Shown: positions 1,231 to 61,296, counted from the stretch's first letter. The stretch is DNA of 64,000 bases from Parcubacteria group bacterium GW2011_GWA2_40_23 (GCA_000996245.1 LBYP01000003.1:9509-73508); one strand, 5' to 3'. Notes: generated from the sequence alone by a model not told the origin. Translations and numbers: made by a program.

Positions 1231-2421
1231 ATGTCAGCCGAGACGTTAATCGAGAATTCGCTAGTTGTGCATGCGTTCCTGGCAGAAAAAGGTTGGCGAT
1301 CACAGATCTGTACCAAATGTGGCTCAACCTTTTTCATTAAAACTTCTAACTCCACGAATTCAACTTTTTGTGGATGGCACAAGTGTAACAACGGAACCTA
1401 TCCTTTCCGCACACTATCGAAGAGAAAAAGTCTACTAACGATTCAGCAAATCAACACTCGAATGCGTGAGTATTTTCGTTCTGTGGGATTTATACCAATC
1501 CCACCGTTAAACATTGCAAACGCAGCCGGCCAAACAGACCTGGTCATTGCTGGGGTGCAAGTGTTTGATAATATCATCCACAACGAAGAACCAATTCGAG
1601 AAGATCCGTTCTTTATTTCTCAACCTTGTGTGCGGATGCAATTCCAGCCACAAGTAGAATCTCAAGAAGGGACATCCAGCTCTTTTGTAAATGTCTGCAC
1701 TGAGAAAATGGGGGCGGGGATTACCCAGCACCTGCAGACCATAGACCAGTGGTGTACGTTTCTGTCCCAAATGGGTCTTCACATGAATGACTTCGTTCTC
1801 GTGCTGCGGACGCGAACAAACGACTGGGGGACCGGCGCCTTTCAATCCCTTGAGCTTTTCTTCTCCTATGGCGGACTTGAACTCGGGGATGCAGCCTTTG
1901 TGCTGATTCCCCAAGCAAACCGAGACCCAATTCCCATTAGTGATATTGGCTTCGGACTCGAACGAATCGCCTGGGCGGTCAATAAGACCGCTTCGTATTT
2001 CGACCTATTAACGCCCTGGACATCAACAGAATCCAGGGAACTACATGACGCCTGTCGAACTCTTTCTCTCCTCGTCCTCTGCGGAGTACAAGCATCAAAC
2101 AAGGGGCCAGGACTCCAGTTCCGGCGCTTTGCTAAGTTACTCAGCGAGAAATACTATGGGGCTGAACTATATGCCCTAATCCAGTACTACTATAACTACT
2201 GGGCACAGTTCATTGAACCCCATGTCGATTGCGAACAAACATTGTTACGAGCACGTCTCGAGATAGAAAGGTTCATCAACCGGAGGCTCTGTGCAGAGTT
2301 AAAACTTCCCCGGCCCGACGAAGAAACAACCGAAGACTACCTTAATCGGTTGGTATATCTACACGGGGCAAACCTGCACGAGCTACGTAACACAGTACAA
2401 ACATGCAAAAGGCAAAGGTAA
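1231..2421 (+). CDS. AlaRS catalytic-domain-like class II aminoacyl ligase (396 aa) with an N-terminal CxxC...CxxxxC zinc ribbon; no AlaRS editing or C-terminal domains
   Basis: Motif-1-like QTDLVIAGVQVF (compare AlaRS DPTLLFTNAGMNQF). SQPCVRMQ (compare SQRCVRAGG). Motif 3 is PIPISDIGFGLERIAWAV (compare PKPSVDTGMGLERIAAVL). A strong SD (AAGGGGG) precedes the ATG. The 3' end overlaps the next gene by 19 nt. Confidence 0.55.
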   Translation: MSAETLIENSLVVHAFLAEKGWRSQICTKCGSTFFIKTSNSTNSTFCGWHKCNNGTYPFRTLSKRKSLLTIQQINTRMREYFRSVGFIPIPPLNIANAAGQTDLVIAGVQVFDNIIHNEEPIREDPFFISQPCVRMQFQPQVESQEGTSSSFVNVCTEKMGAGITQHLQTIDQWCTFLSQMGLHMNDFVLVLRTRTNDWGTGAFQSLELFFSYGGLELGDAAFVLIPQANRDPIPISDIGFGLERIAWAVNKTASYFDLLTPWTSTESRELHDACRTLSLLVLCGVQASNKGPGLQFRRFAKLLSEKYYGAELYALIQYYYNYWAQFIEPHVDCEQTLLRARLEIERFINRRLCAELKLPRPDEETTEDYLNRLVYLHGANLHELRNTVQTCKRQR

Positions 2422-3139: not shown

Positions 3140-4399
3140 CTAATACAAGTTCAACTCTCCCTGCACAATCCTTTGCGTCGTTTCGTTGACGTGAAGAAGT
3201 TTGTCTTTGATGATCTCTGCGATCAACTGACGTTGAAGTGTGTTCGCCATGGAACCACAAACTTCAACACAGGCAGACCAGGGATCCGAAAGACTTCGAC
3301 CCATCTGTGAGGTGAGGTAGACATAGGTCTCGAGCCCTGTTTGGGTGAAGATCCCCTCAGAAATGAGAGCGCAAACTGCGGTGTAGATCTTGCCCACGTG
3401 GTAGACAGGATTCTTGCCGCAACAAGCTTCCATGCTCATGTGTCTCGTAAACGGGATCACTCCATTGTAGCGATTCCCGCGACCGACAACACCTTCGTCT
3501 CCGCTTTCGATCGCACTTCCAGTCAATGTCAAATAGTAATCCGATTTACCAGGATTGTCTCTGGTATTTAGAAAGACCTTTACTCCATACTGACTGAAGT
3601 TCCTCTGCACCAAGTTACGAATGAATTCCTCAAGAAATTCAAGTTTCTCGGCGTAGAACAACTTGTCCGGCGTATAGCACGCTACAAACGGAACACAAAC
3701 AGTTATCTCCAGGCGCCTTCTCATCCGCCTGGCCATAACCTTGATATCCGTCCCAACATAGGGATGGAGTTTTTTAAATTCCGGACTGTTAAGCGTGGTT
3801 TCCACGAGCAGCACGATCTTCTCGGTGTTGCTAAGTGGACTGTACGCAACCGCTGTCGAGGTATCGTTCGAGCGGAGATTGTTGTCATGGAAAACAGCAA
3901 ACTCCTTCTCGGGAATTTCGAAAAAGAACTGCCGTTCGTTCTGCGAGGTTCCATCAGCGTCGTATACTACGCCCGGCCCCGGAGCAAAGTGTGTGTTGTC
4001 CACGATCACGAACCAACGATCAAGATCCAGCAAAGGCAAAACTGTCCCAAGGTGCTGAAAGACTGTCTCCCGAACAATATCCAGGTAGGGGATGGTCTCT
4101 TTCTGGTAGCTGCGCGTGAATCGACAATTAAGGTACAGGCGCGTTGGCTTCTGCATCTCACCACCGCCGAACTGAACCTTCGTCGCCCCACCAGAGAGAG
4201 CAATTTTGTCGACCATGTGCCGCAAAATAATTCCATAATGCCTCAAGCAATATTGTGAATATGCCTGAGACACCTTTTCGGCAAGCGTATCGCAAAGAGT
4301 ATCCGGATGTCCGATACCCTTACGCTCGACAACCTCAAATGCCGTCTGGTCGATAGCCAGGGCTCCTGACGAATAAATCAACAAATTACGCTGGTTCAT
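3140..4399 (-). CDS. archaeal-type S-adenosylmethionine synthetase (methionine adenosyltransferase, PF01941-like)
   Basis: VERKGIGHPDTLCD, HPYVGTDIKVM, GDEGVVGRGNRYNG and SMEACCGKNPVYHVGKIY all match archaeal MAT signatures. Length is 419 aa. Confidence 0.85.
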   Translation of the reverse strand: MNQRNLLIYSSGALAIDQTAFEVVERKGIGHPDTLCDTLAEKVSQAYSQYCLRHYGIILRHMVDKIALSGGATKVQFGGGEMQKPTRLYLNCRFTRSYQKETIPYLDIVRETVFQHLGTVLPLLDLDRWFVIVDNTHFAPGPGVVYDADGTSQNERQFFFEIPEKEFAVFHDNNLRSNDTSTAVAYSPLSNTEKIVLLVETTLNSPEFKKLHPYVGTDIKVMARRMRRRLEITVCVPFVACYTPDKLFYAEKLEFLEEFIRNLVQRNFSQYGVKVFLNTRDNPGKSDYYLTLTGSAIESGDEGVVGRGNRYNGVIPFTRHMSMEACCGKNPVYHVGKIYTAVCALISEGIFTQTGLETYVYLTSQMGRSLSDPWSACVEVCGSMANTLQRQLIAEIIKDKLLHVNETTQRIVQGELNLY

Positions 4400-4896: not shown

Positions 4897-6024
4897 CTAT
4901 TGTTTTATGGGCATCACAATATACGTATAACTATCATCACCCTTTGGTCGAACAAGAAAAGGAACATTACCATCAACAAGGCTCAGTTCAACTTCTTCGG
5001 CGGAAATATTATTTAGTCCGTCGAGTAAATATCTATAATTCAAAGTTGTTTCATTGTCTTCACCAGCAAAAGCAACCGCCATTTCTGATTTACTTTCACC
5101 GAGTTGTGAGTTGGTGGCCTCAATAATTAATCCCTTGGCTGAATTAAATTTTAAATTCACATCAAAAATCCCCAACTTTGAAAACAGGGCCACGGCCTTA
5201 ATCGACTTAACAAGTTCAGAGGTAGCAACAACAACTTGGGTGCGAGTCTCTGTCGGAATAATTTGTTTATAATCTGGAAATTGACCTTCAATTAGACGAG
5301 AGATGAGTTCAATGCCATCGCAAGAGAACAAAATCTGGTTATCAGAAACAAATATTTGCAAAGCATCAATTTGATTTTCTTGTTCCTTGACCAAACCAAG
5401 CACACGCAAAACTTCTTGTAATGATTTTACTGGAACAATCACGTCTCGTTCCTCTTTGTTGTCGCTAATGGCGAGTGCCTTCTCGGTTAAACGATAACTA
5501 TCTGTTCCTACAAGATGAACCATGCCAGGTTTAATTTTATTGAAAGACATTAAGACGCCGCTGATCTCTGGGCGGGATTCAGAGTTGGCCACAGCAAAAA
5601 CAACTTGTGCCAAAGCTTTTTTAAAATCCTTAATATTTATTTTGTAAGAAGATGTGCGTTCGATCTTAGGTATAACAGGGAAGTCATCTGAGACAATGCC
5701 CTTTATCTTAGTTTCAGAAGAACGACAAGCAACTTTTAAAAAATCGTCCTTGGCTAATTCGAGGTTTACTTGATCGTTTGGTAAAAGACTAATGTATTCA
5801 GAAAGAAGGCGAGCGTCCGCTGTGAAGGCACCTTCAACGTCAACCTTACAACGAACATGACAACTAATTCCAATTTCTAAATTAGTACTAGAAAGTTTTA
5901 CTCCACTGCTATTTGCTTCTAATAAAACATTGTTCAATATTGGGAGGTTAATGTTTTTGTTTACTAAATGTCCTGTTGCTTGTAGTCCAAAGTTTAAGTT
6001 TTCTTGAAGGCACGTAAATTTCAT
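4897..6024 (-). CDS. dnaN: DNA polymerase III beta sliding clamp
   Basis: 375 aa. N-terminus MKFTCLQENLNFGLQ..., three-domain length, located immediately downstream of dnaA. Confidence 0.9.
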   Translation of the reverse strand: MKFTCLQENLNFGLQATGHLVNKNINLPILNNVLLEANSSGVKLSSTNLEIGISCHVRCKVDVEGAFTADARLLSEYISLLPNDQVNLELAKDDFLKVACRSSETKIKGIVSDDFPVIPKIERTSSYKINIKDFKKALAQVVFAVANSESRPEISGVLMSFNKIKPGMVHLVGTDSYRLTEKALAISDNKEERDVIVPVKSLQEVLRVLGLVKEQENQIDALQIFVSDNQILFSCDGIELISRLIEGQFPDYKQIIPTETRTQVVVATSELVKSIKAVALFSKLGIFDVNLKFNSAKGLIIEATNSQLGESKSEMAVAFAGEDNETTLNYRYLLDGLNNISAEEVELSLVDGNVPFLVRPKGDDSYTYIVMPIKQ

Positions 6025-6291
6025 ACTTGTGTTTATTTAAATCTCTTATATATAAAACATAATAATAGTAATAATGCTGTGTATTACAGTGGACAAGTCT
6101 TTAGAAGATTTAATTTTAAAGAAATTTCCCTGTGTGTTCGTCTGTGTTTTGCTTGTGTGTGTTGTTGTGTGTAAGTCGTGCTTTTGATTGTTTTGAGACC
6201 CTCAAAATTTAATCAACAGTTGGAGTAAAAAGTTCTAAACATGTTTTTCCAGATAATTTATACGACTTGTAAACAGTTTATCCAGAGAAAA

Positions 6292-7677
6292 CTAGTGTGC
6301 GTAGACCTTTTGTTTAATTAAATTTATTTCTTGGCGCAGTTTTTCATCGTTTTCAACCAGTCCACTTATCTTTTCGTGTGCGTGCATGGCGGTGGTGTGG
6401 TCGCGTCCACCAAGTTCGTGTCCGATAGTTGGGTAAGAACAGCGCAATTCTTCTCTCAAAAGGTACATGATGACTTGTCTGGGGAAGGCAAAACGTTTTT
6501 CGCGACTCTTGCCCAACATGTCTTGCATGGCGGTATCATAAAACTCGCTAACGAGTTCAATTAATTGGCGGGCAGAAACAGCTCCGCTTTGTTTGCTGGC
6601 AGAAGAAATAGAGAAAAGAACTTTTTTTACATTCTCGAGGGTTGGGGGGATGTGGTTGAGTTGGTGATGAGCGATGATTTTATTGAGAGCGCCCTCAAGC
6701 TCACGAATATTGTTTTGAATGTTCAGTGTAATATATTGAATAATGTCACGTTCCAGTGGAAAGTTTTTTTCTTGGCATTTTGTTTCAAGAATAGCGATAC
6801 GGGTTTCAAGGTCTGGTTGAGAAATGTCTGCAATCATGCCCCATTCAAAGCGAGAAAGAAGGCGATCTTCTAGTGTGGCAATGGCTTTGGGTGGTCTGTC
6901 AGAAGTTAAAACAATTTGTTTGTCACTTTGGTGTAGTGCATTAAAGGTGTGGAAGAAAGTTTCTTGTGTGCCCTCTTTGCCAGCGAGGAATTGAATATCA
7001 TCAATTAGCAAAACATCCGGCGTGCGGTAGGTGGCATTAAACTTTTCTGTTCGGCCAGAAGATACTGCATTGATGAAGTCATTAGTAAATTGTTCACAAG
7101 TGACATAAAGGACTTTTTTCTGTGGTGAATGTCGTTGTATTTCATTTCCGATTGCTTGTATGATGTGAGTTTTACCCAAACCAACACCACCGTAAATAAA
7201 AAGCGGGTTATAAGTTAAACCCGGCTTTTCAGCCACAGCTCTGGCTGCGGCGTGGACTAGTTCATTGCCCTTGCCAACAACGAAAGAATCAAAACAATAC
7301 TTAGCATTTAAGCCAATCGCCTGTTCGCCAATAGCAGGGCGAGTTCTAACCTCTGCCTGGAATTGTTTGGCCTCGGCAATAATGGTCTTTTTGATTTGTT
7401 CTTGTTCTTGGCAGTAGTTCTTAACAGTTTGAACTTTATAAGTAATTTCTTTGATGCGTTCTTTAGACTTGCTTTGGATAATGCGGTAAATGTCGGTGTG
7501 ATATTTCTGTTTTAACCAGGCCTGAGAAAAGGTGTTGGGTACGCCGACAACAATTCTGCCGTCTTCATTTTCGATAATAAAAGTATTTTTGAGCCAAGTT
7601 GTGAAACTTGCCTTGCTTAGGGAGAGCTCAAGCTCCCCGAGGACTGCTTGCCAGAGTTGCTGATTAGCTTCTTCCAT
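6292..7677 (-). CDS. dnaA: chromosomal replication initiator DnaA
   Basis: 461 aa. Walker A GGVGLGKTHIIQAIGNE, AAA+ core, C-terminal DNA-binding domain (…TTAMHAHEKI…). Confidence 0.95.
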   Translation of the reverse strand: MEEANQQLWQAVLGELELSLSKASFTTWLKNTFIIENEDGRIVVGVPNTFSQAWLKQKYHTDIYRIIQSKSKERIKEITYKVQTVKNYCQEQEQIKKTIIAEAKQFQAEVRTRPAIGEQAIGLNAKYCFDSFVVGKGNELVHAAARAVAEKPGLTYNPLFIYGGVGLGKTHIIQAIGNEIQRHSPQKKVLYVTCEQFTNDFINAVSSGRTEKFNATYRTPDVLLIDDIQFLAGKEGTQETFFHTFNALHQSDKQIVLTSDRPPKAIATLEDRLLSRFEWGMIADISQPDLETRIAILETKCQEKNFPLERDIIQYITLNIQNNIRELEGALNKIIAHHQLNHIPPTLENVKKVLFSISSASKQSGAVSARQLIELVSEFYDTAMQDMLGKSREKRFAFPRQVIMYLLREELRCSYPTIGHELGGRDHTTAMHAHEKISGLVENDEKLRQEINLIKQKVYAH

Positions 7678-8098
7678 AGTTTTTTTTGTTTTGTTTTACG
7701 TTTAAAGCTTTTAGCTTCTAGCAAGTTAGCTTATAGGTGCTGAGCTATAAAAGGCTAAACACCTAACAGCTAGAAGCTATTTCCTAGAAGCTTTGTATTG
7801 TAGGTGTTTCTATTTTAGCACGAATGAGTATGTGGACAAGTTGTGATGATCTCTTAAAAACTGCGTAACCTGTTTATAACTTGTTGATAACTGTAAATTA
7901 TATTATCTGAGTTAGTGAAAATATGCAAGAAATAAATTTGGTAAAAGGGAAAAGGGGTATGGGCGAAGGGGAGCTCAAAAACAATTTGATCATAATTAAT
8001 TTTCCCTTATTCCTTACCCCACATCCCATAACCCCTTCTCATTGACAAATCCGCAAAAACAAGCTATTCTATGGTTACTTTACTATTAGACATTTTAT
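7678..8098. promoter_or_regulatory. candidate oriC / dnaA control region
   Basis: DnaA-box-like 9-mers TGTGGACAA (~7831) and TGTTGATAA (~7882). An AT-rich stretch. A long imperfect palindrome at ~7712-7790 (agcttctagc...gctagaagct). An inverted repeat at 7940-8040. A second box cluster lies in the dnaN-dnaA spacer (TTATCCAGA ~6278, AGTGGACAA ~6087). Confidence 0.5.
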
Positions 8099-8245
8099 AT
8101 GCCAAAAAGAACCTTCCAGCCGAACGTTGCTAAGAAACTTAAGAAACAAGGTTTCCGAGCTCGCATGGCTACTAGCGATGGACGAGAAATTATCAAAAGA
8201 CGACGCGCGAAGGGTCGCAAAAGACTAACTGCGTCAGATAAATAA
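8099..8245 (+). CDS. rpmH: 50S ribosomal protein L34
   Basis: Translates to [48 protein letters not shown] (48 aa). Missed by the ORF track because it is under 60 aa. Canonical dnaA-rpmH-rnpA order. Confidence 0.9.
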
Positions 8246-8437: not shown

Positions 8438-8794
8438 ATGCTACAAAAAATATATCGTATAACAAAGCAATTAGAATTTGACGCCTTCTTTGGCAATAAA
8501 TTCAAACAAGCCCGCGGCCGCAATTTTTCTACGGCTAATTTTATTTTTAAGAGTAAGCCAAATGGTTTAAAGAATTCACGTTTTGGTTTTGTTATTTCCA
8601 ACAAAATTGATAATCGCGCAGTCGTCAGAAATCGTCTGCGTCGTTATACCCGTGAGACAATTAGACTCAATTTAGACAAATTTAAACAAAATTTGGATTG
8701 TTTGATTGTCTTTAAAAAAGGTTCACAGACACTGGATCATGAAAAATTAGAAAAAGAAATTTTAGGCATTTTTAAAACAATTAGATTGTTATGA
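8438..8794 (+). CDS. rnpA: ribonuclease P protein component
   Basis: 118 aa, basic. The RNR motif region VVRNRLRRYTRE is present. Follows rpmH. Confidence 0.85.
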   Translation: MLQKIYRITKQLEFDAFFGNKFKQARGRNFSTANFIFKSKPNGLKNSRFGFVISNKIDNRAVVRNRLRRYTRETIRLNLDKFKQNLDCLIVFKKGSQTLDHEKLEKEILGIFKTIRLL

Positions 8795-9051
8795 AATTAA
8801 AAGTTTTTTTATATTATCCTCGATATATCGCGCTTAAGATGATTCGCTTTTATCAGCGAACTATTTCTTTTGATCACAGCCCCATGAAAGAGTTCTTTCC
8901 AGGTGGTTTTTGTCGTTACAATCCATCGTGTTCAGAATATACATATAAATCAATTGAAAAATACGGCTTAATTAAAGGTGGGTTTAAGGGGGCGTGGCGC
9001 ATTATGCGTTGTAATCCTTGGTCAAGGGGTGGCGATGATCCAGTAAAATAG
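8791..9051 (+). CDS. yidD: membrane protein insertion efficiency factor YidD
   Basis: 86 aa. The Cys motif region FCRYNPSCSEY...GGFKGAWRIMRCNPWSRGGDDPV is present. ATGA overlap with the rnpA stop. Confidence 0.85.
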   Translation: MKLKVFLYYPRYIALKMIRFYQRTISFDHSPMKEFFPGGFCRYNPSCSEYTYKSIEKYGLIKGGFKGAWRIMRCNPWSRGGDDPVK

Positions 9052-9192
9052 TTACGAATAGCCACAGAAAGTTGATGTTACGAATTACTGCTAAGACTCG
9101 ATTGCTAAACAGTAATTCGCAACCTCTAAATAATTGAGTTATTTGTAATATAAAAACACGCCGCACTCGACGAGGAGTACGGCGGTGGCTGG

Positions 9193-9570
9193 CTACTTGG
9201 GAGCAGCTGGAACCTTTGTTTGGGCGTTGAACCTTCGGACTTCCTCTTGGCGAAGCCGGTGCCAGGTCAGGTGCTCCATCACGAGCAGCCAGACGATGGC
9301 GATGAAGTAGACGATTGGCCCGAGGGCAATGGTGATCTTCATCAGGGCTTCTGCCAAGAAGTAGATTGTCGCGGCGAAGATGATCGCACACAGGAAGCTA
9401 ATGCCGGTGCGAGGTGCGAGGCGAATGTCCTTGTCCCAGCTCTTCAGCAGGAGGCTGGTGGTCTGTGCGGTTGTGAAGGAGAGGAACAGGAGGGTGAAGA
9501 GGAACACGAGGTGTCCGTTGCCGGGGCCAGTCCCCAGTTGCGTGGATAGGGAACCAAATAGCTCATACAT
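9193..9570 (-). CDS. hypothetical multi-pass membrane protein encoded in a high-GC island
   Basis: 125 aa, 3-4 hydrophobic segments, GC3-rich codons (~58% GC) in a ~35% GC genome. Confidence 0.45.
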   Translation of the reverse strand: MYELFGSLSTQLGTGPGNGHLVFLFTLLFLSFTTAQTTSLLLKSWDKDIRLAPRTGISFLCAIIFAATIYFLAEALMKITIALGPIVYFIAIVWLLVMEHLTWHRLRQEEVRRFNAQTKVPAAPK

Positions 9571-9791
9571 GGGATTCCTCTATGTTGATAACGTTTGTAT
9601 TGGTACTCCCCACAAGTGAATATAGCACAGGGAAACATCTTTGTCAACTAAAAAGAGAGAAGGGTATAATAAAGCAAAAGAGAAATAAAACAGTAAATTT
9701 AAATAAAATGTTTATGTTTATAGGGACAGGTCGCGACCTGTCCCCGTGCAAAAAAAATAGCGCCGGTAGAAATGTTCCTACCAGCGCATTG

Positions 9792-10148
9792 TCAGCGACT
9801 ACGAATGAGCACTCCCTGGTTGCTGCCAACCGGGCCCGTGCAGGCGATCAGGTCGACGTTCTTGTTCCGGGCGTTTATGGCCCTGAAGGGGCAGGCCCAA
9901 GTGTCTTCCTGGGTGCACCCGAATTCTCGTGCGGGAGCCTTGCAGGCGCCCACCTGGATATCGGCGTACCCTTGCTTCTTCACCGCGGCGGAGACCGTCA
10001 CCGGATTCGGGGGCGATTCCATCGACTTCATGTACTTCACGAACGCAGGCACGGCCACCATCGCGACGACGGCCACCATCGCGACTACGATCATGAGCTC
10101 GATCAATGTGAAACCCTTCCTCATTCCGAACCCCCTTGTGTTGAGCAC
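9792..10148 (-). CDS. type IV pilin / pseudopilin-like protein (prepilin N-terminal cleavage-methylation motif)
   Basis: Leader MLNTRGFGMRKG, then FTLIELMIVVAMVAV (the G|FTLIE class III signal). 118 aa with 4 Cys. High GC. Confidence 0.55.
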   Translation of the reverse strand: MLNTRGFGMRKGFTLIELMIVVAMVAVVAMVAVPAFVKYMKSMESPPNPVTVSAAVKKQGYADIQVGACKAPAREFGCTQEDTWACPFRAINARNKNVDLIACTGPVGSNQGVLIRSR

Positions 10149-10182
10149 TATTGAGCGACGCTGTTGACAGTTGTCAGGAAGG

Positions 10183-10545
10183 TCACCAGCTACGAATCAG
10201 CACGCCGGTGTTGTCGCCGGCAGTACCTGTGCAAACGGTCAGGGTAACGCGCTCCTCTCGTACGTTCTTGGCAGAAACTAAACAGGCAAATCGGTCACTT
10301 TCAGGACAACCGAAGTACTCGGGTTTGTCCGAGCATTTGCTGACCGTGATGTCAGTGTATCCTTGGCGCTGTACGGCCAGGGTAATCGCGGATTTGTTCA
10401 TGGGCACTTTGGGAGCCCGTGGAGACAGAAACAAGTTGTAGAACATGACAGCAATAAGTGACACAGCCGCCGCGATCATCACTATTTCCATCGATGTGTT
10501 GTCCTTGGCACGTGGCATCTTGAACCTCCTTGTGTTGAGCACCAT
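10183..10545 (-). CDS. degenerate paralog of the adjacent pilin-like protein
   Basis: The leader (MVLNTRRFKMPRAK) and C-terminus (CTGTAGDNTGVLIRSW versus CTGPVGSNQGVLIRSR) are shared, but the G-F-T-L-I-E motif is degraded (NTSMEIVMIAAAV). High GC. Confidence 0.45.
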   Translation of the reverse strand: MVLNTRRFKMPRAKDNTSMEIVMIAAAVSLIAVMFYNLFLSPRAPKVPMNKSAITLAVQRQGYTDITVSKCSDKPEYFGCPESDRFACLVSAKNVREERVTLTVCTGTAGDNTGVLIRSW

Positions 10546-10631
10546 TTGAACACACCGTCTTCAACAGATAATCATGCCAGCAAAAAATAATTTTGTCAAT
10601 ACACTGAGGAGTACGGCGGTTCGAACAGGCG

Positions 10632-10943
10632 CTACCTCCTGGGCGGAGGCGGCGTGACGAGCGGCTTCTTCTTGCCGAAGATGAGGGCGAGGATGTAGAT
10701 CGCGCCGCCGACGCAGACGAGGATGAAGGCCCACTTCGCGATCCAGATGGCGATGGCTAGCACGATGGTGCCGGTCACGGCCTTTACCACGGCGCGGACG
10801 ATCTGCTTCTGTAGCGGCTCGTCGGGAGCCGTTTTCTGGAGGAAGAAGAGGATGAACGCGAGAGCCAGGCACCCGATAACCCACAACAGCATGACGCACC
10901 TCCTTCGAAGCGTTTGAGAACCAGCAACCACTCGCGAAGTCAT
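10632..10943 (-). CDS. hypothetical membrane protein (high GC); a likely true start is the internal Met at ~10892 (MLLWVIGCLALAF...)
   Basis: Two TM helices and a C-terminal KKKPLVTPPPPRR. Lies in the same high-GC island. Confidence 0.4.
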   Translation of the reverse strand: MTSRVVAGSQTLRRRCVMLLWVIGCLALAFILFFLQKTAPDEPLQKQIVRAVVKAVTGTIVLAIAIWIAKWAFILVCVGGAIYILALIFGKKKPLVTPPPPRR

Positions 10944-11098
10944 AATTTAGTATATAAAGAGATAAAAGTCAATAGCAAGCGTTGTATGGTTTTGTCGGGA
11001 CGAGTTGCGATTTGTTCCCGCGTAAATGAGGGGTTAGTTGCTCATCATTAAAAAATTCGGCACCAGTCATGAGAGACGGGTGCCGCGTAGGAATGTGT

Positions 11099-11434
11099 TT
11101 AGGACTTTTTCGCTTTGGGCTCTTTGAAGCTGTGGTAGGTTATCGCGATGGCGAGAAGAATCCCGAGAATAGGAACCCTTGTTGCCAGAAGGACACAAAT
11201 GACAGAGTTGAACCCTGCCACGCCAAGGAGATAGACCAACTTTTTCCAGAGAGGGGCTTTGGAAACAGCACGGAGCAAGTCCCTGAAGAGTTCATATCTT
11301 TCTTTGTAGAAAGATTTAGCTTCCGGAGTTTCCAGGAAAATGTATAGGCGCTTGTACATGAAGGAAAGAACAACGCTGAAGTAGAGGGCACCGAAGACGT
11401 AAAAGTAAACGATGTGCTCCCTAAAGACCTCCAT
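11099..11434 (-). CDS. small hypothetical membrane protein
   Basis: 111 aa, two hydrophobic helices, low-GC native composition. Confidence 0.4.
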   Translation of the reverse strand: MEVFREHIVYFYVFGALYFSVVLSFMYKRLYIFLETPEAKSFYKERYELFRDLLRAVSKAPLWKKLVYLLGVAGFNSVICVLLATRVPILGILLAIAITYHSFKEPKAKKS

Positions 11435-11666
11435 GATTCACCATGACACAGTCAATTGCATTAAAATTAGTATAGAGAGAGTACTTTGTCAATGTTGCCA
11501 TTGAATTTAAAAGCAAATTTAGATAAAATGGGAGCATAGCAACAAAAAATAGTTTTACGACAATCAAAAAACAATAAAACAATAAAACAAAAAGTTAACC
11601 ATAGGAGACTCCTTGCTTCTTTGTTTTCTTGCTTTATTGATTGTGTGCCAAGCAATTTAAAATACA

Positions 11667-13085
11667 ATGTCCGAAATAAACTCCAAAATCGCCCAAAACT
11701 CAATCATCCAACTAACAGGAAAACTAGTTAGTCTGGTTTTAGGTTTAGTGGCAGTGATGATAATGACTCGCTACCTCGGACAAGAGAAATTCGGATATTA
11801 TTATACGGTTGTAGCCTTCCTCCAATTTTTTGGAATACTTGTTGACTTTGGATTAACTTTGACGACAGTGCAAATGATTTCTGATTCGCGCTGGTCCCTT
11901 ACCCGTGTCATGAACTCAATCATGTCCTTTAGAATTATTACCGCGACAGCCTTCCTCGGACTGGCACCAATCATTGTTTGGTTTTTTCCATACAACAATT
12001 TTATTAAATGGGGCGTGTTAATTACAGTTTTTTCATTTTTCTGCATTACAGTTATTCAAGCATTGACTGGTGTCTTCCAACAAAAATTTAAAATGTTAGA
12101 AATAACAATCGCTGAAGTTGTTGGTCGAATCATTCTCGTCGCTGGTGTGGCCTTGACTGCTTATCTTGGTAAAAATATTTATTGGATTTTTTGGATGATT
12201 TCTATTGGCGCGGTTTTAAATTTGTTGATTGTATTTTTCTATTCACGAAAATATATTCAATGGAAATCAGAAGTTGATTTAGAAATTTGGAAAGTCTTGA
12301 TTCAAAAGTCTTGGCCAATTGCACTCGCTATTTCATTTAATTTGATTTATTTGAAGATGGATTCGATTATTCTTTCTTTGGTTAGAACACAATCAGAAGT
12401 TGGTTTGTATGGTGCAACCTATCGGGTGTTGGATATTCTGACAATGCTACCAGCCGTTCTTTTGGGAATTGCTTTGCCTGTTCTATCAAAATATTTTATT
12501 GATCATGAAATCGATAAGTTGAAAAATTTATTACAGAAAATTTTTGACGCGTTAATTATTTTTGCAGTGCCAATTGTTATTGGAACACAGATTGCCGGCC
12601 GCCCGATAATGGAATTTTTTGCGGGCAAAGATTTTTCTGTGTCCGGCGACATTTTAAGAGTTCTTATTTTGGCGGCCGGTGCCATTTTCGTCACCACTGT
12701 CTCTGGCTACGCTGTTATCGCTGTTCAAAAACAAAAACCCATGACTTGGGGTTATTTAACTGCAGCAGTTTTAACTCTCGCCGGTTATTTATATTTCATT
12801 CCTAAATTCGGTTATTGGGGTGCGGCCTGGATGACAGTTTTTTCTGAAATTTTAATTATGATCTGGTCAACTGTTCTTGTTTATAAAACAATTCAGTTTG
12901 TTCCCGGCTTAAATATTTTTTGGCGTTCGCTTGTTCCAACTCTTGTTATGACGATAGCTCTTTACTTGTGCCGAGATTTGCATGCCCTCTGGTTGATTTT
13001 GATTGCAATCATAGTTTATTTTCCATTATTATATTTATTCCGTGGTTTTGACCCCAAGCATTTTCGTGGTTTGTTGCGTTCGTAG
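11667..13085 (+). CDS. oligosaccharide flippase (Wzx / polysaccharide biosynthesis protein family, MOP superfamily)
   Basis: 472 aa, ~12-14 TM segments, N-terminal region typical of PF01943. Confidence 0.65.
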   Translation: MSEINSKIAQNSIIQLTGKLVSLVLGLVAVMIMTRYLGQEKFGYYYTVVAFLQFFGILVDFGLTLTTVQMISDSRWSLTRVMNSIMSFRIITATAFLGLAPIIVWFFPYNNFIKWGVLITVFSFFCITVIQALTGVFQQKFKMLEITIAEVVGRIILVAGVALTAYLGKNIYWIFWMISIGAVLNLLIVFFYSRKYIQWKSEVDLEIWKVLIQKSWPIALAISFNLIYLKMDSIILSLVRTQSEVGLYGATYRVLDILTMLPAVLLGIALPVLSKYFIDHEIDKLKNLLQKIFDALIIFAVPIVIGTQIAGRPIMEFFAGKDFSVSGDILRVLILAAGAIFVTTVSGYAVIAVQKQKPMTWGYLTAAVLTLAGYLYFIPKFGYWGAAWMTVFSEILIMIWSTVLVYKTIQFVPGLNIFWRSLVPTLVMTIALYLCRDLHALWLILIAIIVYFPLLYLFRGFDPKHFRGLLRS

Positions 13086-13127: not shown

Positions 13128-14549
13128 ATGTTATACATCCTCATTATCTTCGTACTCTTATTCGCCTACCTCGCCTGGCGCAAACCAATCTGGGCCCTGT
13201 CTTTTGTTGTTTTGGCTTTACCAACATATCTTCTGCGGTTCGAGATTCGAAATATTCCGACAACATTACTCGAAATCATGATTTTAGTTTTGTTTGTCGT
13301 CTGGCTTATCAAAACAATTTTAGAAAAACAAAAAATAACTTTTAGCAAATACAAATGGTGGATTCTGTTGTTGCTTGTCGTTGCGACAGTTTCCGCCTTT
13401 GTGACTTCGGTAGGGGCTCAAAATTTTGAGCCCCTACCGTGGGGAATTTGGAAAGCCTATTTTATTGAACCAATTTTATTCTTCTTGGTGTTTATCAATA
13501 CAGTAAAAACAAAAAAAGAGTGGAACTTAGTCGTTGGTGCGCTATGGTTATCCGCTTTTTTGGTAGCGATTCCCGCAATCATCCAAAAATTTACTGGCTG
13601 GGGAATACCAAATGAGTTTTGGCGAAATGAAGCTACTCGTCGCATCACTTCTTGGTATGGATTTCCCAATGCTGTTGGTTTATATCTGGCGCCAATAGGC
13701 ATGTTCTTTGCTGGATTGTTAATGCAAAATAAAATTAATGTTATTGAAAAATTTAAACAAAACGGTCTTGTAGGGATAGGTCGTGACCTGTCCCCCTTCC
13801 GGAAAAATTTTTGGAAAACAATATCAATTTTATTTTTATTTGTTTTAATTGTGCTGTCTTTAATTTTCGCTGGTTCAGAGGGAGCGCTCATCGGTCTTGT
13901 CGCCGGACTAATTTTCCTTGGTCTTGTCTATCCCTATCGTTTAACAAGAATTGCGACGCTAATATGTTTGCTTTCTTGCTTTCTTGCTTTCTTGATTGTC
14001 CCCAACTGGCGAGAATACGCCTCTGAGAAGTTTACTATGAGTGACCGCTCCGGCCAAATCCGCCAGCAACAGTGGAAGGAAACTTGGACGATGTTAAAAG
14101 AGGATCACCAAATTCTCGGAGGAGGTTTGGCGAATTATCAAACAGCGATTAAGCCGTATCATGCCGAAGGAATTTGGATTAAAGATAAAAATGATCATGA
14201 TTGGATTAATAAAATTAGAATAAGTGAAGAATTTAGAATCAAAAACTGGCAACCAACTGAAATTTATTTATATCCACATAATATTTTGTTAAATTTCTGG
14301 TCCGAAATCGGAATTTTAGGGGCTGGAATAATGTTAGTTTTAGTGCTAAAGTTGTTCCTCGGATACCTGCGAGTCAAAAGTCAGGAAAACAAAAGGATGT
14401 ATTTGATTTTAATGTCAGTTTTTGTCGTTATTCTTGTTCATGGTTTAGTCGACGTGCCGTATTTTAAAAATGATTTAAGTGTGTTTTGGTGGATGTTGTT
14501 TGGTCTAAGTGTGGTATTAATTAAAAGAAAAGAAATATTAATAAAGTAG
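13128..14549 (+). CDS. O-antigen ligase-like (Wzy_C) polytopic membrane protein
   Basis: 473 aa, many TM helices, a large loop with GSEGALIGLVAGLIFLG. Contains in-frame copies of two palindromic repeat families (see findings). Confidence 0.55.
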   Translation: MLYILIIFVLLFAYLAWRKPIWALSFVVLALPTYLLRFEIRNIPTTLLEIMILVLFVVWLIKTILEKQKITFSKYKWWILLLLVVATVSAFVTSVGAQNFEPLPWGIWKAYFIEPILFFLVFINTVKTKKEWNLVVGALWLSAFLVAIPAIIQKFTGWGIPNEFWRNEATRRITSWYGFPNAVGLYLAPIGMFFAGLLMQNKINVIEKFKQNGLVGIGRDLSPFRKNFWKTISILFLFVLIVLSLIFAGSEGALIGLVAGLIFLGLVYPYRLTRIATLICLLSCFLAFLIVPNWREYASEKFTMSDRSGQIRQQQWKETWTMLKEDHQILGGGLANYQTAIKPYHAEGIWIKDKNDHDWINKIRISEEFRIKNWQPTEIYLYPHNILLNFWSEIGILGAGIMLVLVLKLFLGYLRVKSQENKRMYLILMSVFVVILVHGLVDVPYFKNDLSVFWWMLFGLSVVLIKRKEILIK

Positions 14550-27016: not shown

Positions 27017-27838
27017 CTATTCCAGCGGTCCGAAGCTGAGATCTTCGCCGCAGTAGGGACAGTTCTTGACCGCACCGGGCAGGCAGGCGAGCTTCGTCTG
27101 TTTTGCCCTCGGACCGGAGATGTCGATCCAGATGAGCGGTTCACCTTCGGGCGACCAGACGATCCTGTCGACCAGCCTGGTGAATCTGGGGAAGCCGCCT
27201 TGCTTCGGGGTGAGGCTGGCTTGGGCTTCGAGCGCCCGCATGTTTTTGCAGCGATGCAGGTAGCTGCCATCGGGATGGAGGGTCCAGACCGCGTTGTGCA
27301 GTTCCCACTCTTTTTGGAGCAGTTCGATGTACGCCCCGTGATCGAAGCCCAGGTGCGTAGGTACTTCGAACAAGGGGATGAACATGGGATTGACTTGAAG
27401 TGTGTTCAGCCATTTTAGCTCGGGCTTGGTTTCCAGGTCGAGGCGCAGGACCATCGAAAGCCGCCGCTTGTCTGTGCGCTTATCGCGATACAGATCCGAG
27501 TGGAAGTACTGCTTGGCCCAGAGCTTGGGGTCTATCTCGAGACCGAAAGTTGCGGCCAGACGCGTGGCTGTCTGGTTGATGTCATGGTCGCAGAGGCTTT
27601 CTTCGACAGCTGGTTTGCTGACAAAGCTGCGACGCTGACTGACTAAATTCCCGGTTGCGAACTCGGTCGTAGGCAGACAGTGCAAGTGCATCGGCAGGTT
27701 CACCAGGGACTCGAATTTGGGCAGAACGAGCAGGATCTCTGGGGTCTTGGTCCGGAACTTGCGGGTTACCATGATGGACAGGTCTAGCACCAGTGGTGTG
27801 AGTCTTGCTTTCTTGCTTGTCATGATGGGCTCCTTCAT
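27017..27838 (-). CDS. hypothetical protein with a C-terminal CPYC zinc ribbon, in a high-GC island (~55% GC)
   Basis: 273 aa, GC3-rich codons, ends ...CLPGAVKNCPYCGEDLSFGPLE. Confidence 0.45.
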   Translation of the reverse strand: MKEPIMTSKKARLTPLVLDLSIMVTRKFRTKTPEILLVLPKFESLVNLPMHLHCLPTTEFATGNLVSQRRSFVSKPAVEESLCDHDINQTATRLAATFGLEIDPKLWAKQYFHSDLYRDKRTDKRRLSMVLRLDLETKPELKWLNTLQVNPMFIPLFEVPTHLGFDHGAYIELLQKEWELHNAVWTLHPDGSYLHRCKNMRALEAQASLTPKQGGFPRFTRLVDRIVWSPEGEPLIWIDISGPRAKQTKLACLPGAVKNCPYCGEDLSFGPLE

Positions 27839-41419: not shown

Positions 41420-41815
41420 TCACTTGAGCGGTTCGAGCAAGACGAACATTGGCACTTCGTTTGCCGTTGGGATGAGGCAAAGCTTGGTGCCGAGCATTTC
41501 GTACTTGTAGATCGCTTCTTTTTCTTCTTTGCTCCGCGAGTTGAAGACGAAGCCGGCGCTTTCGGCCTGAGCGTGTTCATGAACACGCACGTAGAGCAGG
41601 TCCAGCCCAGCGTTCTTGATGTCGGACGGAATATCTGCCGTGGTCTTGGCCAGGTGTTCGGGGGACAGGATCCCTGCGATCGTAACCACGCGGCACGTGT
41701 AGACAGGTGGTTGCTTTCCTTCGGACTGACAGCAGCTGCTTGCTCTCATGACCAGGTACATTGCACTGGCCACGAGCACGAGACATCCGAATGTGAAGAG
41801 ACCACGGAACATCAT
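41420..41815 (-). CDS. hypothetical secreted/membrane-anchored protein, high-GC island (start placed at the MMFRGLF Met)
   Basis: N-terminal TM/signal, GC3-rich codons, C-terminal FVLLEPLK shared with the neighbour. Confidence 0.4.
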   Translation of the reverse strand: MMFRGLFTFGCLVLVASAMYLVMRASSCCQSEGKQPPVYTCRVVTIAGILSPEHLAKTTADIPSDIKNAGLDLLYVRVHEHAQAESAGFVFNSRSKEEKEAIYKYEMLGTKLCLIPTANEVPMFVLLEPLK

Positions 41816-41832
41816 GGTTGACCTCGATGTTG

Positions 41833-61212: not shown

Positions 61213-61296
61213 TAAAAATATACGGACCGCCCATTCGGACGGTAGGGATAGGTCGAGACCTGTCCCTACAACGCAGCGCGTTGATCCGTATATTTT
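61213..61296. repeat. ~85-bp nested palindromic element, copy C (inverted orientation, different central hairpin)
   Basis: AAAAATATACGG...CCGTATATTTTTT outer stem. Encloses CCATTCGGACGG and GTAGGGATAGGTCGAGACCTGTCCCTAC. Confidence 0.75.

What the first reader, a model, noticed from the sequence alone, without database searches (positions are those of the whole stretch)
9150..10950. High-GC island after yidD encoding a type IV pilin-like pair and two membrane proteins
Immediately after rpmH-rnpA-yidD the composition jumps from ~35% to ~58% GC, with GC3-rich codons, for four minus-strand genes. Where oxaA/yidC is usually expected there is instead: a multi-pass membrane protein; a classic class-III-signal pilin (MLNTRGFGMRKG|FTLIELMIVV...); a degenerate paralog that retains the leader and C-terminus but has lost the G-F-T-L-I-E motif; and a small membrane protein with a poly-proline tail. 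The block is interrupted at 9580-9790 by AT-rich DNA carrying the palindrome GGGACAGGTCGCGACCTGTCCC. This looks like horizontally acquired surface-appendage genes. The donor might be a high-GC host organism, but that is speculation.
Basis: partly seen in the sequence, partly recalled or inferred. Interest (0 to 1): 0.7.

Follow-up and report, generated by a model that had tools for sequence, protein, structure and literature searches.

The report
GC-rich small membrane-protein cassette island
A real, strain-variable block of five small GC-rich membrane-protein genes sits beside the replication-origin genes of a low-GC groundwater Falkowbacteria (CPR) genome. One gene encodes a pilin-type protein whose outer domain belongs to a family otherwise seen in phages. 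The block is neither an assembly error nor a one-off import from a high-GC host.

Summary
After rpmH-rnpA-yidD, GC rises from about 35% to 53-63%. The island genes have GC3 of 0.61-0.91, against 0.27-0.40 for neighbouring host genes. The island runs to about 11434 and holds five minus-strand genes, not four.

- **Gene organisation.** Each gene or gene pair has its own sigma-70-like promoter and Shine-Dalgarno site; two intrinsic terminators close the mem125 and pilA units.
- **The pilin.** The real leader is MRKG|FTLIELM. The "MLNTRGFG" stretch is 5'UTR that carries the ribosome-binding site.
- **The paralog.** It keeps Glu5 and the membrane helix but has Asp at -1, so it is probably an uncleaved membrane anchor.
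- **The shared outer domain.** This ~65-aa Cys-containing domain is homologous to PHROG 902 (hhalign 99.5%). That family includes T4-like phage RB16 gp39.1 and a Xanthomonas jumbo-phage protein annotated "type IV pilus subunit".
- **Assembly.** Six independent assemblies carry the island essentially unchanged (four identical, two with one SNP each), so it is not a chimera.
- **Relatives.** The yidD-flippase slot is empty in some related species. Two close relatives hold a syntenic, equally GC3-rich island whose proteins have diverged far more than the flanking genes.

This is a lineage-resident, fast-turnover cassette island, not a recent transfer from a high-GC host. Its function is inferred only: surface or pilus modification, possibly phage exclusion. 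What keeps GC3 high is unexplained.

The parts
9052..9165 (.). Junction element between yidD and the island: a terminator tail followed by a TTACGAAT...GTTACGAATTACTG/CAGTAATTCGCAAC hairpin.
   Evidence: Read from the sequence. Homologous copies in L095 lie after pilA and next to yidD, and they bracket a 4-gene block.
9159..9184 (-). Intrinsic terminator of mem125.
   Evidence: Stem of 10 pairs followed by TGTTTTTATA.
9193..9570 (-). mem125: a 125-aa multi-pass membrane protein, GC3 0.76. No relative was found outside this lineage.
   Evidence: ORF. GC3. Hydrophobic segments. Only itself was found among 5.8 billion proteins. The L095 ortholog is 52-53% identical.
9619..9647 (-). Promoter of mem125: TTGACA, 17-nt spacer, TG, TATATT.
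   Evidence: 11 of 12 consensus matches.
9723..9744 (.). Perfect 22-nt palindrome GGGACAGGTCGCGACCTGTCCC. It is a dispersed genomic repeat, not specific to the island.
   Evidence: Three copies in the window (9723, 13773, 61245), none in 100 shuffles. Absent at the equivalent place in L095.
9760..9787 (-). Intrinsic terminator of the pilB-pilA unit.
   Evidence: 12-pair stem followed by TATTTTTTTT. Conserved in L095.
9792..10124 (-). pilA: a 110-aa prepilin-type protein. It has leader MRKG, cleavage before FTLIELM, a ~25-aa helix, a Pro-rich linker, and a ~65-aa outer domain with 4 Cys of the PHROG-902 type. GC3 0.81.
   Evidence: N_methyl/TIGR02532. (domain family). (AF2 model, pLDDT 85.5). 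(GC3).
10125..10152 (-). pilA 5'UTR carrying the Shine-Dalgarno site AAGGGGG. It is 92% identical to the pilB 5'UTR at 10522-10546.
   Evidence: repeat D4.
10183..10518 (-). pilB: a 111-aa paralog of pilA (MPRAKDNTSMEIV...). Gly-1 is replaced by Asp and Phe+1 by Asn, while Glu5 and the TM helix are kept. It carries the same outer domain. GC3 0.61. Probably an uncleaved bitopic membrane protein.
   Evidence: Other family members use plain TM or lipoprotein anchors. Absent in L095 and L001, where an unrelated TM gene of about 110 aa takes its place.
10571..10599 (-). Promoter of the pilB-pilA unit: TTGACA, 17-nt spacer, TG, CATGAT.
   Evidence: 10 of 12 consensus matches. A homologous promoter is present in L001/L095.
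10632..10892 (-). small86: an 86-aa protein with about three hydrophobic segments and a C-terminal KKKPLVTPPPPRR tail. GC3 0.91.
   Evidence: AAGGAGG lies 5 nt before the ATG. The L095 ortholog is 48-50% identical with a conserved tail. No database relative was found.
10944..10972 (-). Promoter of small86: TTGACT, 17-nt spacer, TAAATT.
   Evidence: 9 of 12 consensus matches.
11099..11434 (-). next111: a 111-aa membrane protein with two hydrophobic segments. GC3 0.60.
   Evidence: The L095 ortholog is 75% identical.
11464..11492 (-). Putative promoter of next111: TTGACA, 17-nt spacer, TAATTT. The -10 element is weaker.
   Evidence: Read from the sequence. Repeat D5 links it to the mem125 promoter. 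The consensus scan did not report it.

Best explanation
**What it is.** The region 9150-11440 is a flexible, fast-turnover cassette island. It lies in the slot between yidD and a polysaccharide flippase/Wzy cluster of a Candidatus Falkowbacteria (Patescibacteria/CPR) chromosome, a few kb from the replication origin and head-on to replication.

**How it is built (shown).**
- Each cassette is a self-contained expression unit: an AT-rich sigma-70-type promoter, a strong Shine-Dalgarno site and a GC3-rich ORF. Intrinsic terminators were found after mem125 and after pilA.
- All five products are small integral membrane proteins.
- Cassettes are gained, lost, duplicated and swapped between strains.

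**How it most likely works (inferred).**
- PilA has every sequence feature of a class III (prepilin) signal. It is most likely cut after Gly4 by the cell's prepilin peptidase.
- It would then sit in the membrane or be built into a type IV filament, displaying a ~65-aa outer domain tethered by a Pro-rich linker. The four Cys suggest disulfide bonding, but this was not tested.
- PilB displays a diverged copy of the same domain on an uncleavable anchor.
- That domain belongs to a family carried mainly by virulent and jumbo phages (PHROG 902). There it sits behind a lipoprotein signal, or in one Xanthomonas phage behind a prepilin signal; metagenomic members also use a plain TM anchor.
- By analogy with phage-encoded pilins that alter the pilus and block other phages, the island most likely varies the cell surface or pilus. 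This would serve phage exclusion or the interaction of this probable episymbiont with its host.

**Unresolved.** The high GC3 reflects either continuing influx from an unidentified GC-rich gene pool or a force that maintains G/C at third codon positions. A single old transfer is ruled out for at least part of the island.
For: **Composition and gene structure:**

**Lineage:** DnaA relatives are Falkowbacteria/Patescibacteria MAGs.

**The slot is variable.**
- yidD abuts the flippase gene in L012 and L016 (109-124 bp).
- Other GC3-rich TM genes occupy the slot in L009 (255 aa, GC3 0.78) and L014 (86 aa, GC3 0.74).
- Other cargo occupies it in L010, L011, L017 and L018.

**Sister strains carry a syntenic island.**
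- L095 (DnaA 97.6% identical) has orthologs of mem125, pilA, small86 and next111 plus about seven further small GC3-rich TM genes (GC3 0.65-0.94).
- L089 (DnaA 91.5% identical) has a pilin 45-49% identical to pilA plus other GC3-rich TM genes.

**Fast protein divergence.**
- Flanking genes are 95-98% identical, with dN/dS 0.02-0.04.
- Island genes are 50-84% identical, with dN/dS 0.26-0.86.
- The only two SNPs among six assemblies fall in pilB and small86, and both change an amino acid.

**Prepilin signal:**

**Domain family.**
- The profile search found 16 proteins among 1.84 billion representatives, with pilin, TM or lipoprotein N-termini.
- 9 of 14 family members hit phrog_902.
- 97 phage records match, including RB16 gp39.1 and PhiXhv-15 XYR93166.1 (MKKQSG|FTLIELL... 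plus the domain).
- hhalign gives 99.5% probability, E = 3e-23. Pairwise BLASTP of pilA against the PhiXhv-15 protein gives 32% identity over the full length, E = 1e-14.
- The AF2 model is confident (pLDDT 85.5), and the best viral fold matches are small phage proteins.

**Precedent.** Phage-encoded FimU/PilA-like proteins are incorporated into pili and block phage adsorption (PMC12952977). Type IV pili are conserved in Patescibacteria and are used for host attachment (PMC12206443, PMC9894109).

**GC3 argument.** At four-fold sites a two-state model was calibrated on the flanking genes. A gene that started at 100% GC could be at most about 0.765 after the window/L095 split. small86 has GC3 of 0.91 and 0.94 in the two strains.
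Against: - No function has been tested for any member of the domain family or for any other cassette.
- pilA itself does not hit phrog_902 directly at E <= 0.1. The link runs through profiles.
- No phage structural gene, integrase or tRNA flanks the island. No relative of pilA, mem125 or small86 was found in IMG/VR viral contigs.
- No prepilin peptidase or pilus assembly gene was found among the roughly 39 window ORFs scanned. Cleavage and assembly therefore rest on what is known of other Patescibacteria.
- The GC3 and dS comparisons rest on short genes (22-51 four-fold sites each) and on the NG86 method, which underestimates dS under strong codon bias.
Confidence: 0.55

Rival explanations
1. 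Recent horizontal transfer of a surface-appendage gene block from a high-GC bacterium, for example the organism this CPR cell lives on.
For: - GC3 is 0.61-0.91 in a genome whose GC3 is 0.27-0.40.
- The slot is empty in some relatives.
- The pilin's first ~35 residues match Myxococcota/Deltaproteobacteria-type PilA best, at 62-78% identity.
- Several cassettes have GC3 too high to have resided here since the window/L095 split.
- Other GC-rich single-gene islands exist in the window.
Against: - The island is syntenic at the same slot in two sister lineages whose flanking genes have diverged to dS 0.7-1.2.
- The AT-rich promoters and terminators between the ORFs (GC 0.38-0.46) are homologous between strains and travel with the ORFs. 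A high-GC donor would not supply them.
- Outside this lineage, full-length pilA relatives are phage and unassigned metagenomic proteins; none was traced to a high-GC bacterium.
- There is no integrase, tRNA or mobility gene at the borders.
Confidence: 0.15
2. A native, vertically inherited pilin locus of the Falkowbacteria type IV pilus used for host attachment. Its high GC3 would be maintained by selection on codons or mRNA, or by GC-biased gene conversion in a recombination hot spot. On this view there is no phage connection in function.
For: - The island is present at the same place in three related genomes.
- GC3 is equal in the orthologous pairs: 0.81/0.79, 0.91/0.94 and 0.76/0.79.
- Third-position changes in small86 are mostly G<->C (21 of 29).
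- Island dS is lower than flank dS.
- Pili are conserved in Patescibacteria (PMC12206443).
Against: - Cassette content differs greatly between strains whose DnaA is 97.6% identical.
- Biased gene conversion should not stop sharply at ORF borders, nor spare the adjacent flippase gene (GC3 0.35).
- Other membrane proteins of the genome use normal codons.
- The outer domain's relatives are mostly in phage genomes.
- No pilus machinery lies nearby.
Confidence: 0.2
3. Chimeric assembly joining high-GC DNA of another organism to a low-GC contig.
For: The compositional steps at the borders are sharp.
Against: - Four assemblies (L004, L005, L007, L008) match the window at 100% across both junctions, over 10.8-17.7 kb. 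They come from two ENA MEGAHIT assemblies, one JGI sample and one Logan run.
- Two Rifle scaffolds add one SNP each. L006 spans both junctions. L003 is a 1085-bp contig lying inside the island.
- Related islands sit in the same slot in L095 and L089.
Confidence: 0.01

Closest known systems
Type IV pilins and pseudopilins (class III signal peptide; TIGR02532 / PF07963 N_methyl)
   Same: Short basic leader ending in Gly, Phe at +1, Glu at +5 and a ~20-residue hydrophobic helix. Both HMMs score above their cut-offs.
   Different: - The protein is very small (106 aa when mature).
- In the model the N-terminal helix ends at about residue 31 and a Pro-rich linker follows, so there is no continuous alpha-1 helix packed on the head.
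- No assembly genes lie nearby.
PHROG 902: Escherichia phage RB16 gp39.1 (ADJ55455.1) and relatives in RB43/KP15/Lw1-type phages; Xanthomonas jumbo phage PhiXhv-15 'type IV pilus subunit' XYR93166.1
   Same: - The same ~65-aa domain, with motif QGY-D-[IV]...GC..(S)D..A...A.N..G..V....C.G...G.(T)[IV]R.
- hhalign gives 99.5% probability.
- The PhiXhv-15 protein has the same overall design: a short leader, G|FTLIEL and then the domain.
   Different: - These are encoded in virulent or jumbo phages of Proteobacteria, not in a CPR chromosome.
- RB16 gp39.1 uses a lipoprotein-type signal.
- The function of the family is unknown.
- pilA and pilB have an extra Cys pair and do not hit the PHROG HMM directly.
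Phage-encoded pilins that give anti-phage defence (P-FimU of Pseudomonas F10-like prophages; P-PilA of Xylella prophages; PMC12952977)
   Same: A mobile-element-associated, rapidly diverging pilin-type protein that could replace or decorate a pilus component. It is the functional analogy used here.
   Different: - P-FimU and P-PilA are clear homologs of host pilus subunits with pilin head folds, and they sit in prophages.
- Here the head is a different domain, no prophage is present, and nothing has been tested.
Phage 'morons' (autonomous promoter-ORF-terminator units of atypical composition in lambdoid phages; from my own knowledge of the literature, Hendrix and colleagues)
   Same: Each cassette has its own promoter, and composition differs sharply from the surroundings. 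Terminators were found after mem125 and pilA. Other GC-rich units in the window have their own promoters too.
   Different: The units are not embedded between phage genes. They are arrayed in a chromosomal slot next to housekeeping genes.
Flexible (hypervariable) genomic islands encoding surface structures next to O-antigen/polysaccharide loci (from my own knowledge of population genomics of marine and freshwater bacteria)
   Same: - Strain-specific gene content between conserved flanks.
- Location next to flippase/Wzy genes.
- Fast protein divergence.
   Different: Such islands are usually lower in GC than the genome and encode glycosyltransferases. Here the cargo is small membrane proteins with very high GC3.

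Membership tests
Type IV pilin / prepilin (class III signal) | N-terminal cleavage/methylation motif: a basic leader, Gly-1, Phe/Met+1, Glu+5 and a hydrophobic helix. | tested here: met
   pilA reads MRKG|FTLIELMIVVAMVAVVAMVAV. TIGR02532 scores 32.2 bits (cut-off 16.3) and PF07963 scores 28.6 bits (cut-off 21.2). pilB has Asp at -1 and Asn at +1 and matches neither HMM.
Type IV pilin / prepilin (class III signal) | Pilin head fold: a continuous alpha-1 helix packed on a 4-stranded antiparallel sheet. | tested here: inconclusive
Type IV pilin / prepilin (class III signal) | A prepilin peptidase and filament assembly machinery in the same genome. | not testable with these tools
   None was found among the roughly 39 window ORFs scanned against Pfam. 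The rest of the genome is not available. Such machinery is conserved in Patescibacteria according to PMC12206443.
PHROG 902 (RB16 gp39.1-like small membrane-anchored phage proteins) | Sequence homology of the ~65-aa C-terminal domain. | tested here: met
   - hhalign of the pilA/pilB/P0001 profile against the phage and metagenome family gives probability 99.5%, E = 2.9e-23.
- 9 of 14 aligned family members hit phrog_902, best E = 2e-11.
- pilA and pilB alone give no direct hit at E <= 0.1.
PHROG 902 (RB16 gp39.1-like small membrane-anchored phage proteins) | Encoded in a phage genome. | tested here: not met
   No phage genes flank the island. There are no relatives in IMG/VR and no tblastn hit of pilA in 50,697 phage records.
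Recently acquired genomic island from a high-GC donor | Atypical composition relative to the host genome. | tested here: met
   GC3 is 0.61-0.91 against 0.27-0.40.
Recently acquired genomic island from a high-GC donor | Absence from close relatives, and donor-like homologs elsewhere. | tested here: not met
   A syntenic island is present in L095 and L089. No full-length homologs were traced to a high-GC bacterium.
Recently acquired genomic island from a high-GC donor | Mobility signatures: an integrase, a flanking tRNA, or direct repeats at the borders. | tested here: not met
   - There is no tRNA near the island; the nearest is at 16153.
- There are no border repeats in the window.
- There is no integrase-sized ORF in or beside the island.
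- L095 does have a repeated ~110-nt junction element around an inserted block.
Phage moron | Autonomous promoter and terminator around a single ORF of atypical composition. | tested here: met
   Promoter-like sites lie at 9647-9619, 10599-10571 and 10972-10944. Terminators lie at 9184-9159 and 9787-9760. These are consensus matches only.
Phage moron | Location between genes of a (pro)phage. | tested here: not met
   The flanks are yidD and a polysaccharide flippase, conserved in relatives.

The most novel reading that the evidence does not exclude
Falkowbacteria, and perhaps other low-GC Patescibacteria, may keep an origin-proximal, head-on array of autonomous cassettes for small membrane proteins. 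In this reading the third codon positions are actively held at G/C while the proteins diverge almost neutrally and the cassettes are shuffled at conserved AT-rich junction elements. That would be a dedicated surface-variation or phage-exclusion locus with a composition-maintaining mechanism not yet described (selection on GC3, or a continuous feed from an unknown GC-rich phage or host gene pool). The prepilin-anchored PHROG-902 domain would be its pilus-targeted member.
Probability: 0.2. Interest if true: 0.7.

Novelty: new variant of a known kind. Interest (0 to 1): 0.45.

Why it matters
CPR/Patescibacteria are thought to live attached to other cells and to rely on type IV pili, yet the variable part of their surface is almost unknown.

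- **A concrete variable locus.** This island differs between strains. It encodes a pilin-type protein sharing a domain with proteins of unrelated phages, and it can be tracked across groundwater metagenomes.
- **A practical blind spot.** Gene callers trained on the low-GC genome mis-call these GC-rich genes, choosing antisense or wrong-frame ORFs in public assemblies. Such cassettes are therefore largely invisible in protein databases.
- **An open evolutionary question.** If GC3 is actively maintained against the genome's AT bias, the locus would be a useful natural case for studying what sets base composition. That claim still needs polarised population data.

Tried and rejected
- **Assembly chimera.** Rejected. 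Four independent assemblies are identical to the window across the island and two more differ by one SNP each.
- **The 12-residue leader MLNTRGFGMRKG.** Rejected in favour of MRKG. The SD lies inside the supposed leader, the orthologs have short leaders, and the 110-aa product is the form on record in a public assembly while the 118-aa form is not.
- **Missing yidC.** Not an anomaly. In relatives yidD abuts the flippase gene.
- **The palindrome as an island-specific or recombination site.** Rejected. Two further copies lie elsewhere in the genome and it is absent from the L095 island.
- **Homolog searches for mem125 and small86.** These found nothing beyond mem125 itself. This is partly because public gene calls use the wrong frames here.
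- **Viral contig scans with pilA, mem125 and small86.** No relatives.
- **Anti-phage defence models (PADLOC).** Ten island proteins from the window and L095 gave nothing meaningful.
- **Pfam and NCBIfam on the non-pilin proteins.** Only sub-threshold noise.
- **Rfam and tRNA scans.** No RNA gene lies in the island.
- **Fold search against afdb50.** The library was unavailable.
- **Profile-based scan of viral contigs.** The alignment was too divergent to seed the search.
- **Phage origin of the other GC-rich islands (273-aa and 203-aa proteins).** No phage matches.
- **A high-GC Patescibacteria donor.** Such genomes exist (GC 0.60, GC3 0.75-0.78), but their intergenic GC (about 0.55) exceeds that of the island (0.38-0.46). 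This is neither supported nor excluded.
- **Literature searches.** I found no paper on gp39.1 function or on GC-rich islands in Patescibacteria.
Full report
**1. The observation**

The window has 39% GC overall. Just after rpmH (8099-8245), rnpA (8438-8794) and yidD (8791-9051), GC in 200-nt windows climbs from 0.29-0.40 to 0.52-0.645. There is a trough of 0.39-0.42 around 9500-9800.

In their reading frames GC3 is 0.76 (mem125), 0.81 (pilA), 0.61 (pilB) and 0.91 (small86). For dnaN, dnaA, rpmH, rnpA, yidD and the flippase gene it is 0.27-0.40. A fifth minus-strand membrane-protein gene at 11099-11434 has GC3 0.60, so the island runs to about 11440 and not 10950. No tRNA or Rfam family lies in it.

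**2. Gene anatomy**

The DNA alignment of the two pilin paralogs shows that the most conserved stretch is the 25 nt upstream of an internal ATG. It reads ...GTGCTCAACACAAGG(G/A)GGTTC..ATG and contains a Shine-Dalgarno sequence. Four findings follow.

- **pilA.** It starts at 10124 and encodes MRKG|FTLIELM... (110 aa). The 110-aa product is the one on record in a public assembly, whereas the 118-aa form is not. Orthologs begin MKSSRG|F and MKRPCG|F.
- **pilB.** It encodes MPRAKDNTSMEIV.... Gly-1 has become Asp and Phe+1 has become Asn. Glu5 and the hydrophobic helix are kept. A prepilin peptidase should therefore not cut it.
- **small86.** It starts at 10892 behind AAGGAGG.
- **Expression signals.** On the minus strand, promoter-like sites at 9647-9619, 10599-10571 and 10972-10944 and intrinsic terminators at 9787-9760 and 9184-9159 divide the island into units: small86, pilB-pilA and mem125. 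A weaker candidate promoter lies upstream of next111.

The AT-rich 'interruption' is simply the pilA terminator followed by the mem125 promoter. The palindrome GGGACAGGTCGCGACCTGTCCC has two near-copies elsewhere, at 13773 inside the Wzy-like ORF and at 61245 between convergent genes. It is therefore a dispersed repeat of the genome.

**3. Not an assembly artefact**

The window's DnaA is carried by 11 public contigs. Five of those contigs, plus one short contig found through pilA, come from different samples and pipelines: two ENA MEGAHIT assemblies, two Rifle 'ANAN16' scaffolds, one JGI sample and one Logan run. All six contain the island. Four are 100% identical to the window over 10.8-17.7 kb, and the other two differ by one SNP each.

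In those records the gene callers chose a 190-aa antisense ORF in place of pilA and a wrong-frame ORF in place of small86. This explains why these proteins are nearly absent from protein databases.

**4. Organism and locus history**

DnaA relatives in GTDB genomes are Candidatus Falkowbacteria and other Patescibacteria. The order yidD, flippase (472 aa), Wzy-like (473 aa) is conserved, but the gap between yidD and the flippase varies.

| Locus | DnaA identity to the window | Content of the yidD-flippase slot |
|---|---|---|
| L012 | 72% | empty (109 bp) |
| L016 | 70% | empty (124 bp) |
| L009 | 92% | one 255-aa TM protein, GC3 0.78 |
| L014 | 70% | one 86-aa TM protein, GC3 0.74 |
| L010, L011, L017, L018 | 68-76% | 2.6-4.8 kb of other genes |

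Two close relatives carry a related island in the same slot.

- **L095** (DnaA 97.6%, flippase 95% identical). Its island is 5 kb. It holds orthologs of next111 (75%), small86 (48-50%), pilA (84%) and mem125 (52-53%). An unrelated TM gene of about 110 aa stands where pilB is. About six further small GC3-rich TM genes are present, so the cassettes number about eleven with GC3 of 0.65-0.94.
- **L089** (DnaA 91.5%). It holds a pilin 45-49% identical to pilA (P0124, GC3 0.68) and five other GC3-rich genes, four of them with predicted TM segments.

The AT-rich promoter regions are homologous between strains. In L095 a ~110-nt junction element is duplicated around an inserted four-gene block.

The island is therefore a resident but rapidly changing feature of this lineage.

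**5. Rates**

| Gene set (window vs L095) | dS | dN/dS |
|---|---|---|
| Flanking genes dnaA, rnpA, yidD, flippase | 0.7-1.2 | 0.02-0.04 |
| Island genes | 0.31-0.57 | 0.26-0.86 |

In mem125 and small86, differences are spread evenly over the three codon positions. In small86, 21 of 29 third-position differences are G<->C.

At four-fold sites I calibrated a two-state model on the flanks (GC4* = 0.39). It predicts that even a gene at 100% GC would have fallen to about 0.765 since the split. small86 shows GC3 of 0.91 and 0.94 in the two strains. pilA has fewer S<->W differences (7 of 51) than the roughly 18 expected.

So at least some cassettes were exchanged or acquired after the split, or G/C at third positions is maintained. 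mem125 and next111 are compatible with old residence and partial decay.

These numbers rest on short genes, and NG86 underestimates dS under codon bias. I treat the 'GC3 maintenance' idea as open.

**6. What the pilin pair is**

- **N-terminus.** It is a bona fide prepilin signal.
- **Rarity.** Among 5.8 billion proteins only one full-length relative appeared (P0001, the L001/L095 ortholog). All other hits covered only the N-terminal ~35 residues, best to Myxococcota/Deltaproteobacteria-type PilA.
- **Domain family.** A profile of the C-terminal domain, searched against 1.84 billion representatives, found 16 proteins. Most are 82-123 aa long. They carry the same domain behind a pilin signal, a plain TM helix or a lipoprotein signal; one (P0128) has no evident anchor.
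- **Phage link.**
  - Nine of the 14 aligned members match PHROG 902, whose function is unknown.
  - tblastn finds the domain in 97 phage records. These include T4-like phages (RB16 gp39.1, RB43, KP15, Lw1, Miller) and Xanthomonas jumbo phages.
  - In PhiXhv-15 the protein is annotated 'type IV pilus subunit' and reads MKKQSG|FTLIELLIVV... followed by the domain.
  - RB16 gp39.1 has a lipoprotein-type signal.
  - Profile-profile comparison gives 99.5% probability. The family is rare on plasmids.
- **Structure.**
  - The AlphaFold model built from the 14-sequence alignment is confident (pLDDT 85.5).
  - It shows a TM helix at residues 7-31, a Pro-rich linker, and then one helix and four strands.
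  - The best viral matches are small phage proteins, one of them annotated as a lipoprotein.

pilB is thus better described as a TM-anchored member of the family than as a broken pilin.

**7. The other cassettes**

mem125, small86 and next111, and the extra cassettes of L095 and L089, have no recognisable family in Pfam, NCBIfam, PHROGs or PADLOC. All but one (a 107-aa L089 ORF) are predicted to have one to five hydrophobic segments.

No prepilin peptidase or pilus assembly gene was found among the roughly 39 window ORFs scanned. The neighbourhood encodes polysaccharide and capsule functions.

**8. Interpretation**

The following points are shown:
- The island is real.
- It is made of autonomous expression units for small membrane proteins.
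- It lies in a variable slot.
- It is shared with sister strains but differs in content.
- Its proteins diverge far faster than the flanking genes.
- Its pilin pair belongs to a phage-associated domain family.

The following points are inferred:
- PilA is processed by the cell's prepilin peptidase. It then displays its domain on the membrane or on a type IV filament.
- The island serves surface or pilus variation. This rests on analogy with phage-encoded FimU/PilA-like proteins that enter the pilus and block pilus-binding phages (PMC12952977). It also rests on the central role of type IV pili in Patescibacteria (PMC12206443, PMC9894109).

The source or cause of the high GC3 remains unexplained. 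A single ancient transfer does not fit small86 and pilA. A recent transfer from a high-GC bacterium does not fit the shared synteny and the shared AT-rich regulatory DNA.

**9. Verdict**

I classify it as a new variant of known kinds, namely a flexible surface island, moron-like cassettes and a phage-family pilin-like protein. Interest is moderate. It would rise if the maintenance of GC3 were confirmed with polarised population data.

Noticed in passing
window 9723-9744, 13773-13794, 61245-61266: The dispersed 22-nt palindrome GGGAYAGGTCGNGACCTGTCCC has three copies. The copy at 13773 lies in frame inside the Wzy-like ORF 13128-14549 (...VGIGRDLSPF...). The copy at 61245 sits inside a larger hairpin between convergent genes. 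This could be a small palindromic mobile or terminator element.
   Followed up: partly
window 9052-9165; L095 10262-10375 and about 11860-11990: A ~110-nt junction element (terminator tail plus TTACGAAT-type hairpin) occurs once in the window, by yidD. In L095 it occurs twice, bracketing a four-gene block. It may be the site where cassettes recombine.
   Followed up: partly
window 27017-27838 (-), 41420-42267 (-), 47231-47842 (+): Three further GC3-rich islands (GC3 0.62-0.87) lie in the window, each with its own promoter-like site: a 273-aa soluble protein, two TM-anchored paralogs of 157 and 144 aa, and a 203-aa signal-peptide protein followed by a strong terminator. None has a Pfam, NCBIfam or PHROG family, and the two tested (273-aa and 203-aa) have no phage match.
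   Followed up: partly
window 1231-2421 (+) and 3140-4399 (-): Two moderately GC-enriched genes (GC3 0.50 and 0.57) lie on the other side of dnaN. One is an archaeal-type S-adenosylmethionine synthetase (PF01941, as listed for the public contigs). The other is a 396-aa protein without a family.
   Followed up: no
L004-L008 (public assemblies of the same locus): Public gene calls in the island are wrong: a 190-aa ORF antisense to pilA and a 107/112-aa wrong-frame ORF over small86. Protein databases therefore under-represent such GC-rich cassettes in low-GC genomes.
   Followed up: yes
window 10271 (pilB) and 10817 (small86): These are the only two SNPs seen among six independent assemblies, which overlap the window by 1-18 kb each. 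Both fall in island genes and both change an amino acid.
   Followed up: partly
window about 5000-8100 versus 9150-11440: Cumulative GC skew turns near dnaN/dnaA, which suggests that the replication origin is there. The island genes would then be transcribed head-on to replication, whereas nearly all genes from 11.6 to 45 kb are co-directional.
   Followed up: no
window 10128-10152 and 10522-10546: The 25-nt 5'UTR/SD segments before pilA and pilB are 92% identical, although the coding regions are only 37-39% identical at the protein level. The last ~20 nt of both genes are also conserved. This fits recombination at conserved ends or a shared translational control element.
   Followed up: no
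window 55049-55876 (-): A 275-aa protein with a Bro-N domain, often associated with phages, lies in a region with slightly raised GC.
   Followed up: no
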